From Squalus acanthias (taxonomy: Eukaryota): DNA of 64,000 nt. Shown piece after piece: positions 5,055-55,950 of the stretch (the stretch's first letter is position 1; each line of letters opens with the position of its first letter). The translations under genes were made by a program, and so were the position numbers. The notes beneath the pieces were generated by a model that made no database searches, was not told the DNA's origin, and saw nothing but the letters and a program-made list of their open reading frames with translations. Location: assembly GCA_030390025.1 (NCBI GenBank), contig CM059432.1, forward strand, positions 8,556,001-8,620,000, read 5' to 3'.

Positions 5055-5252
5055 AGAAGTCGCACAACACCAGGTTATAGTCCAACAGCTTTATTTGAAA
5101 TCACAAGCTTTCGGAGCGCTGCTCCTTCGTCAGGTGACGAAGGAGCAGCGCTCCGAAAGCTTGTGATTTCAAATAAAGCTGTTGGACTATAACCTGGTGT
5201 TGTGCGACTTCTTACATTTGTCCACCCCAGTCCAACACTGGCATCTCCACAT
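5055..5252. mobile_element. Penelope-like family 2 fold-back terminal-repeat insertion
   Basis: Perfect 78-bp inverted arms (5055-5132 / 5135-5212), 40-nt tail, TSD CATTGATAAAGGTG; the same repeat follows GIY-YIG remnants at 37238 and 45147. Confidence 0.85.
5101..5137 (-). ncRNA. Minimal type I hammerhead ribozyme motif (PLE family 2)
   Basis: TCAC-CTGACGA-A-GGAGC agc GCTCC-GAAA-GC-TT-GTGA. Confidence 0.7.
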
Positions 5253-5300
5253 CATTGATAAAGGTGAGAGTGAGGGGGAAAATTTGTTCAGGCCTGTTTT

Positions 5301-5980
5301 CAACAATAATTTGCATTTATATAGCGCCTTTAACGTAGTAAAATTTCCCAAGGCGCTTCAAAGGAGCGATTATCAAACAAAATTTGACACCGAGCCACAT
5401 AAGGAGATATTAGGACAGGCTTGTTCACCGAGGTAGGTTTTAAGGAGCATCTTAAAGGAGAAGAGAGAGGTAGAGAGGAGCATAGGTTTAGGCAGGGAAT
5501 TCCAGAGCTTAGGGCCTTGGCAACAGAAGGCACGGCCGCCAATGGTGGAGCGATGAAAATTGGGCATGCACAGATGCCAGAATGGAGGTGCGCAGAGATC
5601 TCGGAGGGTTGTAAGGCTGGAGGAGGTTACAGAGATAGGGAGGGCCGAGTCTATGGAGTGATTTGAAAACAAGGATCAGAATTTTAAAATCGAGGTGTTG
5701 CTTTCAAAGGCAAGTTCAAAATGTAGGTCAGCGAGCGCAGGGGTGATGGGTAAACGGGACTTGGCGGGGACCAAAGACAATGGCTTTGGTCTTCCCAATG
5801 TTTAATTGGAGGAAATTTCTGCTCAGCCTGGATGTCGGACAAGCAGTTTGACAAATCAGAGGCAGTGGAGGGGTTAAGGGAGGTGGTGGTGAGGTAAAGC
5901 TGGGTATCATCAGCGTACATGTGGGACTTTACGCTGTGTTTTCGGATAATGTCGCCGAGGGGCAGCATGTCGAGGAGAAA
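5301..5980 (-). mobile_element. L2-clade LINE 3' fragment
   Basis: [12 protein letters not shown] motif; tail AGGCGCTATATAAATGCAA(A)TT(GTT)n. Confidence 0.85.
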
Positions 5981-5982
5981 CA

Positions 5983-6283
5983 GGGCCCGAAATTTTCGAC
6001 ACGCTCTCAGCGTGCATCAGAAGCTGGAGGGCCGCCCGAGGCTCGTTTCGAAATTGGATCTCAAGCCTGATCCTGAGGCAGCTACAGCAGTGATGCTCAG
6101 ATAGGTCCTGGGAGGCAAAAGGCAATGGGGGAGGAAGGGATGGGCGGGGGGGGGGGGGGGTTGCGGTGGGGAGCAGCCTTCTGTCATCCTGTGGAGCCGA
6201 GGGGGGGCACTCCAGCTCTCCTGACTCCACAGGAGATAAAACTTACCTTCGTGTTGGCGGGCTTCAGCAGTCCCTTTAAGGAC
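5983..6283. mobile_element. One-ended Harbinger-type MITE fragment
   Basis: Begins GGGCCCGAAATTTTC; has ACTTACCT and CCCTTTAAG motifs shared with other MITEs; no second TIR seen. Confidence 0.45.
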
Positions 6284-6335
6284 CCAAGTTCTGACCTTAT
6301 GACAAAGGAAAGGTCATTGATGAAGCAGCTGAAGA

Positions 6336-52335: not shown

Positions 52336-52347
52336 ATATAAAAATGA

Positions 52348-52516
52348 AAGACTTGCATTTCTATAGCGCCTTTCACCACCTCAGGACGTACCAAAGCGCT
52401 TTACAGCCAATGAAGTACTTTTTGAAGTGTAGTCGCTGTTGTAATGTAAGAAACGCGGCAGCCAATCTGTGCACAGTAAGCTCCCATAAACAGCAATGTA
52501 ATAATGACCAGATAAT
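52348..52516 (-). mobile_element. DeuSINE 3' half
   Basis: Matches 41624-41790. Confidence 0.8.
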
Positions 52517-53242
52517 GGGGGGGAAATTTGGTATCGACCATTTTGGGGCATTAATTAGCGGCGGCGACCGGGAAATTGAGTTTTAGCACCCCAAGAGGGA
52601 AGTGGAGCGCTAAATCAAGTATTCCACTTCCTTTTTAGGGAGCTAATGTCGGAGAGCGGGGCGGAGACTTCAGCAATGGTGCACACTGGGCCGTGCAGCG
52701 CTGCCGCGTTCAAAGGCTCCTTCCCTCCCTTAAAGGGAAGGGCCACCGCTGCAGGCTCTGCAATTTAAAAAGTACCGACCTGGACCACCAAGGCAGCCGC
52801 GATCCCGCACGATCAGCCCGATACTCAAGCAGAGCGCCGGGCTGATCGATCGTTCGCAGGAACCGGCGAAAAAAACTAGAACAGGAATGGTAAGTAATTT
52901 TTCCACTTACCTCGGCCACCTCGCCTTTAATCATCGCACCGGAAGCGGCCGGCCGCCCGATGCACGCCTCCTGCAGCTGTCGGTGTTTTCACCCGGCGCT
53001 GCTGCAGGGGGCAGAGGTCAATTTCGGGTCCAGGGCACTACTCGGGCAATGCACACGGCGATGACATCACAATCTCCGGGTGAAGGAGATCAGGGCGCAA
53101 TGCCGTAGCGCCGCCGCAAAACTCCTGCTGAATATGGCGGGTGTCGATGTCAGCGCCGCGCCCGGTCGCAAAGCCACTTGCGCCCCATTATCGCCCCCCG
53201 GGGGCTCTAAGGGGAGGCGCAAAGGTACCCAATTTCACCCTC
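52517..53242. mobile_element. Harbinger-type MITE, family F
   Basis: Ends GGGGGGGAAATTTGGTA / TACCCAATTTCACCCTC; flanks AAT/TAT. Confidence 0.75.
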
Positions 53243-53399
53243 TATACTTCTTGTGATAAATCATTAGTTTTTGTTAAAGCCTTATCAACTTGAGGTTCCG
53301 CCTTTAATGCCCTGTAAACCTTCATCTCCAAATTCCTCTGTACGAGCCTACAGGTTATTTTTTAGCTTCCAAATTGTATTATCGGAAGGCCTCCTCATT

Positions 53400-55950
53400 C
53401 GAGTAAAATTCACAAATCACTAAAAGTAGCGGCGCAGGTTACTAAAACCATTATTAAAAACAGCACTGGGGTTTATTTCTAGAGGGATGGAATTGAAAAG
53501 CAGAGAAGTTATGCTAAACTTGTATAGAACCTTGGTTAGACTGCACTTGGAGTACTGTGCACAGTTCTACTGTAAAAAGGATATAGAGGCACTGGAGAAC
53601 GTGCAAAAATAATTTACTAGAGTAATACCAGAACTGAGAGGTTATAACTATCAGGGAAGGTTGAACAAGTTGGGCCTCTTTTCTCTAGAAAAGAGAAGAT
53701 GAGGGGTGACCTGATAGAGGTCTTCAAAACTCTGAAAGGGTTTGATAGGGTAGACATAGAAACATAGAAGATAGGAGCAGGAGTAGGCCATTCGGCCCCT
53801 CGAGCCTGCTCCGCCATTTAATGTGATCATGGCTGATCATCCAAATTCAGTACCCTGTCCCTGCTTTCTCCCCATATCCCTTGATCCCCTTAGCCTTAAG
53901 AAATATATCTATCTCCTTCTTGAATATATTTAATGAATTGGCCTCAACTGCCTTCTGTGGTAGAGAATTCCACAGGTTCACCACTCTCTGGGTGAAGAAA
54001 TTCCTCCTCATCTCAGTCCTAAATGGCTTACCCCTTATCCTTAGACTGTGACCCCTGGTTCTGGACTCCCCCGCCATCGGGAACATCCTTCCTGCATCTA
54101 GTCTGTCTAGTCCTGTTAGAATTTTATAAGTTTCAATGAGATCCCCTCTCATTCTTCTAAACTCTAGCGAATATAAGCCCAATCGACCCAATTTCTCTTC
54201 ATACGTCATTCCTGCCATCCCAGGTATCAGCCTTGTGAATCTTCGCTGCACTCCCTCCATGGCAAGAACATCCTTCCTCAGATAAGGTGACCAAAACTGC
54301 ACACAGTACTCAAGGTGTGGTCTCACCAAGGCCCTGTACAACTGCAGCAAGACATCCTTGCTCCTGTACTCGAATCCCCTCGCTATGAAGGCCAACATAC
54401 CATTTGCCTTCTTCACCGTCTGCTGCACCTGCATGCTTACCTTCAGCGACTGGTGCACAAGGACACCCAGGTCTCGTTGCACTTCCCCTTCTCCCAACCT
54501 ATTGCCATTCAGATAATAATCTGCCTTCCTGTTTTTGCCACCAAAGTGGATAACCTCGCTTTTTATCCACATTATACTGCATCTGCCATGCATCTGCCCA
54601 ATCATAGACATAGAGAAGATTCAAAGACCAAAACTAGAAGTCATAAATATCAGATAGTGACTAATAAATCCAACAGGGAATTCAGGAGAAACCTCTTTAC
54701 TGAGAGTGGTGAGAATGTGGAACTCACTACCACAGGGAGTAGTTGAGGCAAATAACATAGATGCTTTTATGCAGGCATTGGTGACGCCACATCTGGAGTA
54801 TTGTGCACAGTTCTGGTCTCCTTACCGAAGGAAGGATATACTTGCCTTAGAGGAAGTGCAACGAAGGTTCACTAGACTGGTTCCTGGGGTGAGGGGATTA
54901 TCCTATGAGGAGAGATTGAGAAAACTAGGCCTATATTCCCTAGAGTTTAGAAGAATGAGAGGTGATCTAATTGAAACATATAAAATTCTTAAGGGGCTTG
55001 ACAGGGTTAATGCTGAGAAAATTTCTTCCCTGGCTGGGGAATCAAGAACACGAGGTCACAGTCTCAGAATAAGGGGTCGGCCATTTAGGACTGAGATGAG
55101 GAGGAATTTCTTCATTCAGAGGGTGGTGAATCTTTGAAATTCTCTAGCCCAGGGGGCTGTGGATGCTCAGTCATTGAGTAAATTCAAGACAGAGGTCGAT
55201 AAACTTTTGGGAACTAAGGGAATTAAGGGATATGGGGATAGTGCGGGAAGGTGGAGTTGAGGTAGAAGATCAGCCATGATCATATTGAGAAGTCGCACAA
55301 CACCAGGTTATAGTCCAACAGATTTATTTAAAATTACAAGCTTTCGGAGCTGTTGCCCCTTCGTCAGGTAAAGGTACAATGAGGGAATCTACAGTATTAT
55401 ACAGTATATAAACACAGAAAGCAATTTGTCTGCAGAGATACAATCTTTCAGGGAGGCATTACATCAAAGACACACCAGAGCACAGCCAATGCTGATGTAA
55501 GGCCTCCCTGAAAGATTGTATCTCTGCAGACAAATTGCTTTCTGTGTTTATATACTGTGTAATACTGTAGATTCCCTCATTGTACCTTTACCTGACGAAG
55601 GGGCAACAGCTCCGGAAGCTTGTAATTTTAAATAAATCTGTTGGACTATAACCTGGTGTTGTGCGACTTCTCATTTTTGTCCACCCCAGTCCAACACCGG
55701 CATCTCCGCATCATGATCATATTGAATGGCGGAGCAGGCTCGAAGGGCCAAATGGCCGACTCCTGCTCCTATTTCTTAAGTTCTTATGTTCTTATGCATT
55801 TAAGGGGAAGCTAGATAAGCACATGAGGGAGAAAGAAATAGAAGGCTATGCTGATCGGGTTAGATGAAGAGGGGTGGGAGGAGGCTTGGGTGGAGCATAA
55901 ACACAGGTATAGACTAGTTGGGCCGAATTACCTGTTTCTGGGCTGTAGTC
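53400..55950 (+). mobile_element. Older CR1 3' part split by nested CR1s (53756-54603 minus; about 54768-55795 plus)
   Basis: ORFs 53847-54611 and 54706-55137; TSD TAGACATAGA around the minus copy; host resumes at 54604 and 55795. Confidence 0.85.
55287..55711. mobile_element. PLE family 2 fold-back insertion with hammerhead motifs on both arms
   Basis: ~180-bp inverted arms, 26-nt spacer, 38-nt tail, TSD CATGATCATATTGA. Confidence 0.88.

What the first reader, a model, noticed from the sequence alone, without database searches (positions are those of the whole stretch)
5101..55625. Hammerhead ribozyme in PLE family 2 with compensatory covariation across four insertions
Seen on the minus strand: 5137-5101 TCAC-CTGACGA-A-GGAGC agc GCTCC-GAAA-GCTT-GTGA; 37328-37287 TCAC-CTGAGGA-A-GGAGC aatcgata GCTCC-GAAA-GCTT-GTGA; 45272-45235 TTAC-CTGACGA-A-GGAGC gata GCTCC-GAAA-GCTT-GTAA; 55371-55334 TTAC-CTGACGA-A-GGGGC aaca GCTCC-GAAA-GCTT-GTAA. 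Stem I swaps C-G for U-A, stem II tolerates G-U, loop 2 and core position 7 vary freely, and the rest of the core is fixed. Stem III is reduced to the palindrome AGCU. Established: PLEs carry minimal type I hammerheads thought to act as dimers via a palindromic stem III. Inference: the fold is under selection, with predicted cleavage after CUU.
Basis: partly seen in the sequence, partly recalled or inferred. Interest (0 to 1): 0.7.

Follow-up and report, generated by a model that had tools for sequence, protein, structure and literature searches.

The report
Shark Penelope element minimal hammerhead ribozyme
Four truncated end-pieces of a Penelope-like jumping gene, in what is likely a shark genome, each carry a stripped-down hammerhead RNA motif predicted to cut itself only in pairs or with protein help; the motif is real, but this kind was described in 2014 and is ordinary for these elements.

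Summary
All four motifs are present as written; a minimal-hammerhead descriptor finds 6 hits in the window and 0 in 200 shuffles. The family is a Penelope-like element (PLE): 2 of 4 copies keep the endonuclease C-terminus, 95% identical to a shark RT/endonuclease protein; all 4 have 12-17 bp target-site duplications and a ~40-nt tail; 3 are inverted. The architecture (4-bp stem I, extra A, loop-less AGCU stem III, U17) matches the min-HHR of Cervera & de la Peña 2014, whose alignment has a turtle motif with the same stem III. The 'covariation across four insertions' is overstated: it is one double change between two subfamilies, and in copy 5137 the informative base overlaps the inversion junction. 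A distant relative (L001) adds a second compensatory change, so the fold probably is selected, in master lineages rather than these copies. Cleavage is untested; none of 7 arms starts at the predicted cut. The scan noted this kind before in two other shark-like genomes. New member of a known kind; low interest.

The parts
5053..5255 (.). Insertion A: inverted pair of short PLE 3' ends joined at 5134-5137 inside the hammerhead; minus arm stops at the short end (5053), plus arm carries the tail (to 5255)
   Evidence: arms differ at 1 of 80 bases
5101..5137 (-). min-HHR, subfamily A (stem I UCAC/GUGA, 3-nt loop 2); 5' stem I strand overlaps the inversion junction; predicted cut between 5105 and 5104
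5135..5166 (+). Second arm, truncated hammerhead lacking C3 and the 5' strand of stem I (predicted dead)
5041..5057 (+). Target-site duplication of insertion A (17 bp with overlaps; partner 5253-5269)
37239..37826 (.). Insertion B: minus arm 37772-37239 (endonuclease C-terminus, 330-nt 3' UTR, hammerhead, short end) plus inverted 54-nt tail piece 37773-37826
37665..37772 (-). Last 36 codons of the PLE endonuclease domain, 89% identical to P0002
37287..37328 (-). min-HHR, subfamily A (G at position 7, 8-nt loop 2); predicted cut between 37291 and 37290
37225..37237 (+). Target-site duplication of insertion B (13 bp; partner 37824-37836)
45146..45678 (-). Insertion C: simple 5'-truncated copy: endonuclease C-terminus, 223-nt 3' UTR, hammerhead, AATAAA, conserved block, tail
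45499..45678 (-). Last 60 codons of the PLE endonuclease domain, 95% identical to shark protein P0002
45235..45272 (-). min-HHR, subfamily B (stem I UUAC/GUAA, 4-nt loop 2); predicted cut between 45239 and 45238
45187..45222 (-). Conserved block downstream of the hammerhead ending at the short 3' end (45187); 92-97% identical among window copies, about 75-78% to L001
45146..45186 (-). 41-nt PLE 'tail' (second 3' end at 45146); holds a 7-8-nt complement (45171-45165) of the block's first bases (45220-45214)
45135..45146 (+). Target-site duplication of insertion C (12 bp; partner 45679-45690)
55286..55714 (.). Insertion D: inverted pair, ~180-nt arms (part of 3' UTR + hammerhead); minus arm short end 55286, plus arm tail end 55714
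   Evidence: arms differ at 3 of 181 bases
55334..55371 (-). min-HHR, subfamily B with G-U in stem II; predicted cut between 55338 and 55337
55588..55625 (+). Second arm hammerhead with core change A13G at 55615 (predicted dead)
55275..55288 (+). Target-site duplication of insertion D (14 bp with overlaps; partner 55712-55725)

Best explanation
These are four independent, 5'-truncated insertions of one Penelope-like retrotransposon family, likely of a shark, whose terminal repeat carries a minimal type I hammerhead motif that is predicted to cut after CUU only when two copies pair through their AGCU palindromes or the element's protein assists. Shown: the copies, their target-site duplications, two alternative 3' ends 41 nt apart, the endonuclease C-terminus, and pairing-preserving change in stems I and II. 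Inferred from known PLE biology: a tandem master copy elsewhere is transcribed; the RT/endonuclease nicks the target and starts cDNA at one of two internal sites downstream of the hammerhead (short end or tail end); synthesis runs through the uncut hammerhead into the 3' UTR and stops early; when both target strands are primed, two cDNAs are joined head to head and give the inverted loci. The hammerhead is kept by selection on active master lineages, likely for slow or late processing of tandem precursor RNA; the copies in this window are solitary (8-32 kb apart) fossils and two arms already have broken cores.
For: Motif above chance; stems I and II are the MFE fold; endonuclease C-terminus 95% and 89% identical to P0002, which has RT (Pfam RVT_1), a CxxxxCxxC linker, and whose relative P0005 has GIY-YIG; TSDs of 17, 13, 12, 14 bp; in run X1 loose ends with unrelated flanks pile at 45145/45146 (27 contigs) and 45187 (17 contigs), the two 3' ends; two two-sided changes in stem I and one A-U/G-U in stem II with 66 of 66 cells paired, slid controls 23-52%; toy-model chance of two fully compensated double changes 0.002-0.005, or 0.008-0.03 allowing G-U; the 60 nt upstream are only 50-70% alike against a shuffled baseline of 53%; same architecture published for many animal PLEs, with the same stem III and U17 in a turtle motif; tail, inverted arm and two RT starts published.
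Against: No cleavage data: only contigs were available, the one run on record as RNA laid 0 contigs, and table 6 listed no shared ends. Only two compensatory events, one of them from a single low-coverage, probably chimeric contig (L001); pairs with two-sided change reach the observed value in 46 of 500 shuffles. A U-to-C change at the outer stem I pair (45272) without a listed partner change occurs in 3, 1 and 1 contigs. The downstream block is as invariant as the core, so conservation alone does not single out catalysis. ViennaRNA cofold does not give the active dimer: 3 of 5 sequences form extended stem II duplexes and 2 of 5 pair through the 6-nt AAGCUU, which would lock A14 to U17 (the program cannot score tertiary folds). 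Published PLE min-HHRs cut weakly even as dimers, and in the anole element cleavage needed protein and was dispensable for insertion in vitro.
Confidence: 0.85

Rival explanations
1. The hammerhead-like fold is kept as a structural or protein-binding signal (part of the cis element that the RT/endonuclease recognises, with the downstream block), and cleavage is negligible in vivo.
For: 0 of 7 family-2 arms begin at the predicted cut and 6 of 7 span it intact; downstream block is equally conserved; anole HHR mutants still insert and no RNA-seq reads ended at the cut.
Against: Exactly the catalytic positions are fixed while N7 takes C, G, U (and A in one loose end) and loop 2 varies 3-8 nt, the pattern expected for catalysis; PLE HHRs of fungi and the anole do cut.
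Confidence: 0.1
2. The copies are non-autonomous retrozyme or SINE-like elements built around a hammerhead rather than pieces of an autonomous PLE.
For: Two of four loci hold no coding sequence; animal retrozymes are reported in a chondrichthyan and derive from PLE repeats.
Against: Two copies run into the endonuclease C-terminus and break off at different points next to a TSD or inverted tail; no tandem array; stems are of the minimal, not canonical 6-bp, type.
Confidence: 0.03
3. The covariation is an accident of ancestry and of the inversion junction, and the fold is no longer under selection in this family.
For: One event among the four window copies; copy 5137 is ambiguous; both changes in the window pair are transitions.
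Against: Second, transversion-type compensation in L001 at a different pair; no substitution rows in the core among the contigs laid; upstream sequence near random identity.
Confidence: 0.02

Closest known systems
Minimal hammerheads (min-HHR) in pseudo-LTRs of metazoan Penelope-like elements, Cervera & de la Peña 2014 (PMC4209133; read: main text parts 1-2 of 4, supplement file 2 part 2 of 3 and term search; file 1 not searchable)
   Same: Type I topology, CUGANGA + one extra base, G10.1-C11.1 pair, 4-bp stem I, no loop 3, palindromic 15.2-16.2, AU-rich 3' flank; the listed painted-turtle motif has the same G-C-U-U and a following AAUAAA, the lamprey motif the same UCAC/GUGA stem I.
   Different: Stem II of 5 bp is at the short end of the range; no shark or Callorhinchus hit in the two searchable supplement files, so this family itself was not seen listed.
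Poseidon element of Anolis carolinensis (PAc), Frangieh et al. 2024 (PMC11167929; read: parts 1-2 of 4)
   Same: Two 3' ends a tail apart downstream of an HHR, uncut HHR carried into insertions, both target strands extended.
   Different: PAc is Penelope/Poseidon clade with its start codon inside stem II; here the relative P0002 has a Neptune/Nematis-type linker and no ATG-opened frame starts within the hammerhead-to-tail stretch.
Canonical type I hammerheads of animal retrozymes (PMC7229834, passages; bioRxiv 10.64898/2026.07.22.740005, part 1 and passages) and Rfam hammerhead families
   Same: Same catalytic core and dimer logic.
   Different: No 6-bp stem I or loop 1-loop 2 contact, no short tandem array; no Rfam hammerhead family matched at E<=1 in the window or E<=10 in a 201-nt stretch.
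Lünse, Weinberg & Breaker 2016, small hammerhead variants of Penelope-like retrotransposons cleave as dimers (not held; title seen in a reference list and summarised in PMC6765202 passages)
   Same: By its title and the review's summary: short palindromic stem III, dimer cleavage.
   Different: Could not check whether shark sequences or AGCU variants were among those tested.

Membership tests
PLE min-HHR (Cervera 2014) | Core CUGANGA ... GAAA ... NUH | tested here: met
   4 of 4 minus arms and L001; broken in the 2 plus arms
PLE min-HHR (Cervera 2014) | Unpaired base between A9 and 10.1, and G10.1-C11.1 pair | tested here: met
   6 of 6 rows of A2
PLE min-HHR (Cervera 2014) | Short stem I (about 4-5 bp), open ends (type I) | tested here: met
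   4 bp, 24 of 24 cells paired, 2 pairs with two-sided change; MFE fold
PLE min-HHR (Cervera 2014) | Palindromic 15.2-16.2, stem III without loop | tested here: met
   AGCU in all rows, invariant so no covariation evidence
PLE min-HHR (Cervera 2014) | Located in the terminal repeat of a PLE | tested here: met
   223-330 nt downstream of the endonuclease stop in two copies and likewise in L001
PLE min-HHR (Cervera 2014) | Self-cleavage as dimer or with assistance | not testable with these tools
   No raw RNA reads offered; RNA run X9 laid 0 contigs
Penelope-like element (EN+) | RT followed by C-terminal GIY-YIG endonuclease | tested here: met
   By proxy: window peptide 95% identical over 57 aa to P0002 (RVT_1 hit); P0005 has the GIY-YIG hit. 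The window copies hold only the last 36-60 codons, which have no Pfam hit alone
Penelope-like element (EN+) | 30-40 bp tail at one end, inverted 5'-truncated arm | tested here: met
   41-nt tail in 4 of 4 loci; inverted arm in 3 of 4, each with tail on one side only
Penelope-like element (EN+) | Tandem full-length copy flanked by pseudo-LTRs | not testable with these tools
   None in the window; no genome held
Neptune clade of PLE | Zn-finger-like CX2-5CxxC linker between RT and endonuclease | tested here: met
   In relative P0002 at residue 505; shared with Nematis per PMC8557442 passage
Neptune clade of PLE | RT phylogeny groups with Neptune | not tested
   No reference set of clade members held; no tree built
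Canonical type I HHR / retrozyme | 6-bp stem I with loop 1-loop 2 contact; short tandem array | tested here: not met
   Stem I 4 bp, loop 2 of 3-8 nt variable, copies 8-32 kb apart; no Rfam hammerhead hit

The most novel reading that the evidence does not exclude
The invariant AAGCUU palindrome acts chiefly as an RNA dimer link, like a retroviral dimerisation signal, that holds two element RNAs in one particle so that a protein dimer primes both target strands and makes the inverted insertions whose arms copy the same template region and share private variants (3 of 4 loci); a 7-8-bp helix between the post-hammerhead block and the tail, kept in the distant L001 copy, sets the two cDNA start sites, and 3-nt CAT microhomology to the target (3 of 4 loci) aids priming. 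Against it: Naiad elements lack hammerheads yet make inverted insertions (PMC8557442 passage), and one RNA could be copied twice.
Probability: 0.06. Interest if true: 0.6.

Novelty: new member of a known kind. Interest (0 to 1): 0.15.

Why it matters
As a finding it adds one more animal PLE family to a class known since 2014. Its modest use is practical: a compact 37-42-nt motif with natural compensatory variants, clean TSDs and both 3' ends is a convenient substrate for the still open question of what PLE hammerheads do in vivo (precursor processing, protein-assisted late cleavage or RNA pairing).

Tried and rejected
Whole genome not held, so no genome-wide copy set or R-scape-type test. Rfam: no hammerhead family in the window (E<=1) or in 45140-45340 (E<=10); the miRNA-family hits are just the inverted-repeat hairpins. 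Family pattern in viral contigs and prokaryote genomes: 0 hits; downstream-block pattern in viral contigs: 0; P0005 in viral contigs: 56 pattern hits, none confirmed; a looser pattern gave 58 prokaryotic matches, none with both full stems, treated as chance. Pfam found nothing on the short or decayed window peptides. One search was translated in the wrong frame and not used. In one search the L001 'ORFend' and 'UTR' figures are invalid (a frameshift in L001 threw the parser) and were dropped; only the last-60-nt, HHR, spacer and block figures were used. The depth fall upstream of 45225 was considered as a sign of copies ending at the cut site and rejected: it coincides with subfamily differences at 45231-45236 that clip contigs, and contig depth is not copy number. 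RNA run X9 laid 0 contigs, which is no evidence either way. A covariance model from A2 found the six arms (five are its own training rows) and nothing else below E 0.3. Paper searches for shark + Neptune + Penelope + hammerhead ribozyme gave 0 papers and for Penelope-like + inverted + twin priming + tail one unrelated review listing; subscription papers are not covered.
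Full report
Observation. A minimal-hammerhead descriptor requiring the core, a paired stem II, a palindromic two-base stem III and a 4-bp stem I finds 6 hits in the window, the four named plus two from another repeat family, and none in any of 200 dinucleotide shuffles. Each motif folds alone into stems I and II (z -1.1 to -2.6, so stability alone is unremarkable). No Rfam hammerhead family matches, as expected for a motif without stem III loop. 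Two more arms lie on the plus strand: 5135-5166 lacks C3 and the 5' strand of stem I, and 55588-55625 has A13G.

What the repeat is. Self-comparison shows seven arms in four loci. Copies at 37772 and 45678 begin inside a reading frame that ends like a PLE endonuclease. The 60-residue peptide finds 19 proteins among 32 candidates; the named ones are from sharks, the best (P0002, 95%) has a reverse transcriptase domain and a CxxxxCxxC linker, and P0005 (86%) has a GIY-YIG hit. So the family is an endonuclease-bearing PLE of Neptune/Nematis type (linker criterion from PMC8557442 passages; no tree built) and the host is likely a cartilaginous fish. After the stop come 223-330 nt of poorly conserved 3' UTR, the hammerhead, AATAAA, a ~36-nt conserved block, and either a short end or a further 41-nt tail. 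All four loci have target-site duplications (17, 13, 12, 14 bp), so they are separate insertions. Three are inverted, with the tail on one side only, the layout described for PLEs. Contigs from run X1 confirm two family-wide 3' ends, at 45145/45146 (27 contigs) and 45187 (17 contigs), with unrelated flanks, matching the two RT start sites shown for the anole element (PMC11167929).

Covariation. Within the window the C-G/U-A swap is one pair and separates two subfamilies that also differ just downstream, so it counts once. In copy 5137 the 5' strand of stem I overlaps the inversion junction and its informative C could come from the other arm. One scan of metagenome contigs, with a pattern that left three of the four stem I pairs free, gave one locus, L001, a distant PLE 3' end (endonuclease end 48-86% identical to P0002) whose stem I is UCUC/GAGA: a second two-sided change at another pair. 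On the six-row alignment 66 of 66 cells pair, against 23-52% when partners are slid; 4 of 500 shuffles reach the pairing and covariation scores but 46 of 500 reach two changed pairs, and the rows are related. A toy model gives 0.002-0.005 for two fully compensated double changes. In the contigs laid from three runs (1465, 44, 23; the fourth run laid none) no substitution reaches 3% between 45237 and 45269, only loop-2 indels; the GUGA variant is common (37-81% of summed depth) and subfamily A's upstream letters appear as loose ends at 45270; an A-to-G change giving a G-U in stem I occurs in 9 contigs; against this, an outer-pair change without listed partner occurs in 5 contigs, phase is not given, and divergent contigs are clipped. 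The 60 nt upstream are near random identity (50-70% against 53%), the downstream block is as conserved as the core. Selection on the fold is therefore likely but rests on two events, one from a low-coverage, probably chimeric contig.

How it likely works. By standard numbering (established knowledge) the cut falls after C16.2-U16.1-U17, before the 3' strand of stem I. With no loop 3 a monomer cannot form stem III; two RNAs, or two tandem repeats, can pair AGCU with AGCU. Published PLE motifs of this type did not cut as monomers and cut weakly as dimers (PMC4209133); the anole one cut only with the element's protein, and cutting was not needed for insertion in vitro. The window agrees with uncut RNA being the template: 0 of 7 arms start at the cut and 6 of 7 span it. 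The copies here cannot pair in cis as tandem repeats (8-32 kb apart; inverted arms lie on opposite strands), and one of three differences between the arms of locus D breaks the core, so they are best read as fossils of selection on master elements. Secondary-structure cofolding does not return the active dimer and shows competing duplexes, including a 6-nt pairing that would lock A14 to U17, in line with slow or assisted cleavage. Cleavage itself is not shown.

Comparison and novelty. Every sequence feature that defines the min-HHR of Cervera & de la Peña is met, and their supplementary alignment lists a turtle motif with the same stem III, U17 and following AAUAAA and a lamprey motif with the same stem I. 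Sharks were not found in the two searchable supplement files (file 1 not searchable) nor in a four-term paper search; the 2016 dimer paper could not be read, and bioRxiv supplements are closed, so a prior listing of this family cannot be excluded. Two earlier notes of this scan report the same kind in other shark-like genomes (unchecked AI notes); none exists near this place. Verdict: a real, well-formed, new member of a known kind; interest 0.15. The boldest reading left open, that the palindrome pairs two template RNAs for double-ended insertion and that a block-tail helix sets the cDNA starts, is given 0.06.

Noticed in passing
window 45220-45214 with 45171-45165 (-); equivalents in 5179-5255 (+), 55638-55714 (+), L001:934-990: A 7-8-bp helix between the block after the hammerhead and the tail encloses the short 3' end; both arms are kept in L001 while the enclosed ~40 nt diverge. 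Pair probability 0.78-0.99 in two window arms and >0.9 in L001, but copy 45 prefers an alternative helix using the same tail bases; no covariation seen.
   Followed up: partly
window 5253-5255, 37824-37826, 55712-55714: In 3 of 4 loci the last 3 bases of the tail (CAT) are also the first bases of the target-site duplication; in 2 of 3 inverted loci the short end overlaps the duplication by 3-5 bases too. Suggests microhomology-aided priming or cut-site preference.
   Followed up: partly
window 9991-11214 (-) and arms at 9324-9990, 11563-11757, 31760-31866, 32524-32647, 44481-44583: A second PLE family (decayed RT + CxCxxCxxC linker + GIY-YIG-like C-terminus, 30% identical to P0002) with its own min-HHR (ACGU stem III); 2 intact by the descriptor, several with core mutations.
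   Followed up: partly
window 9808, 9421, 31761, 44583; also 5134-5137: Homology of four family-1 arms begins 3-4 nt upstream of C3, and family-2 locus A inverts inside the core: 5' junctions may cluster at the 5' edge of the hammerhead; alignment ends could also reflect subfamily divergence.
   Followed up: partly
L001:136-1348: The PLE 3' end (about 523-1010) sits between frames that do not look like PLE; one resembles deoxyhypusine synthase (recognised from recall, not searched). Coverage 0.8, probably a chimeric contig.
   Followed up: no
protein hits P0003, P0014, P0017, P0018, P0020: Shark gene models named XRCC5, PPP1R12A-like, FAM210B, septin 5a and FAM204A contain this endonuclease C-terminus at 76-91% identity: exonised PLE pieces or annotation artefacts.
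   Followed up: no
window 47051-49876 (+) and many shorter pieces: A 941-codon open LINE-type frame (endonuclease + RT motifs, CR1-like by recall) and many related 3' fragments; insertion D lies inside one such 3' end.
   Followed up: no
window 28765-29430 and 63084-64000: Simple tandem arrays giving repetitive spurious ORFs.
   Followed up: no
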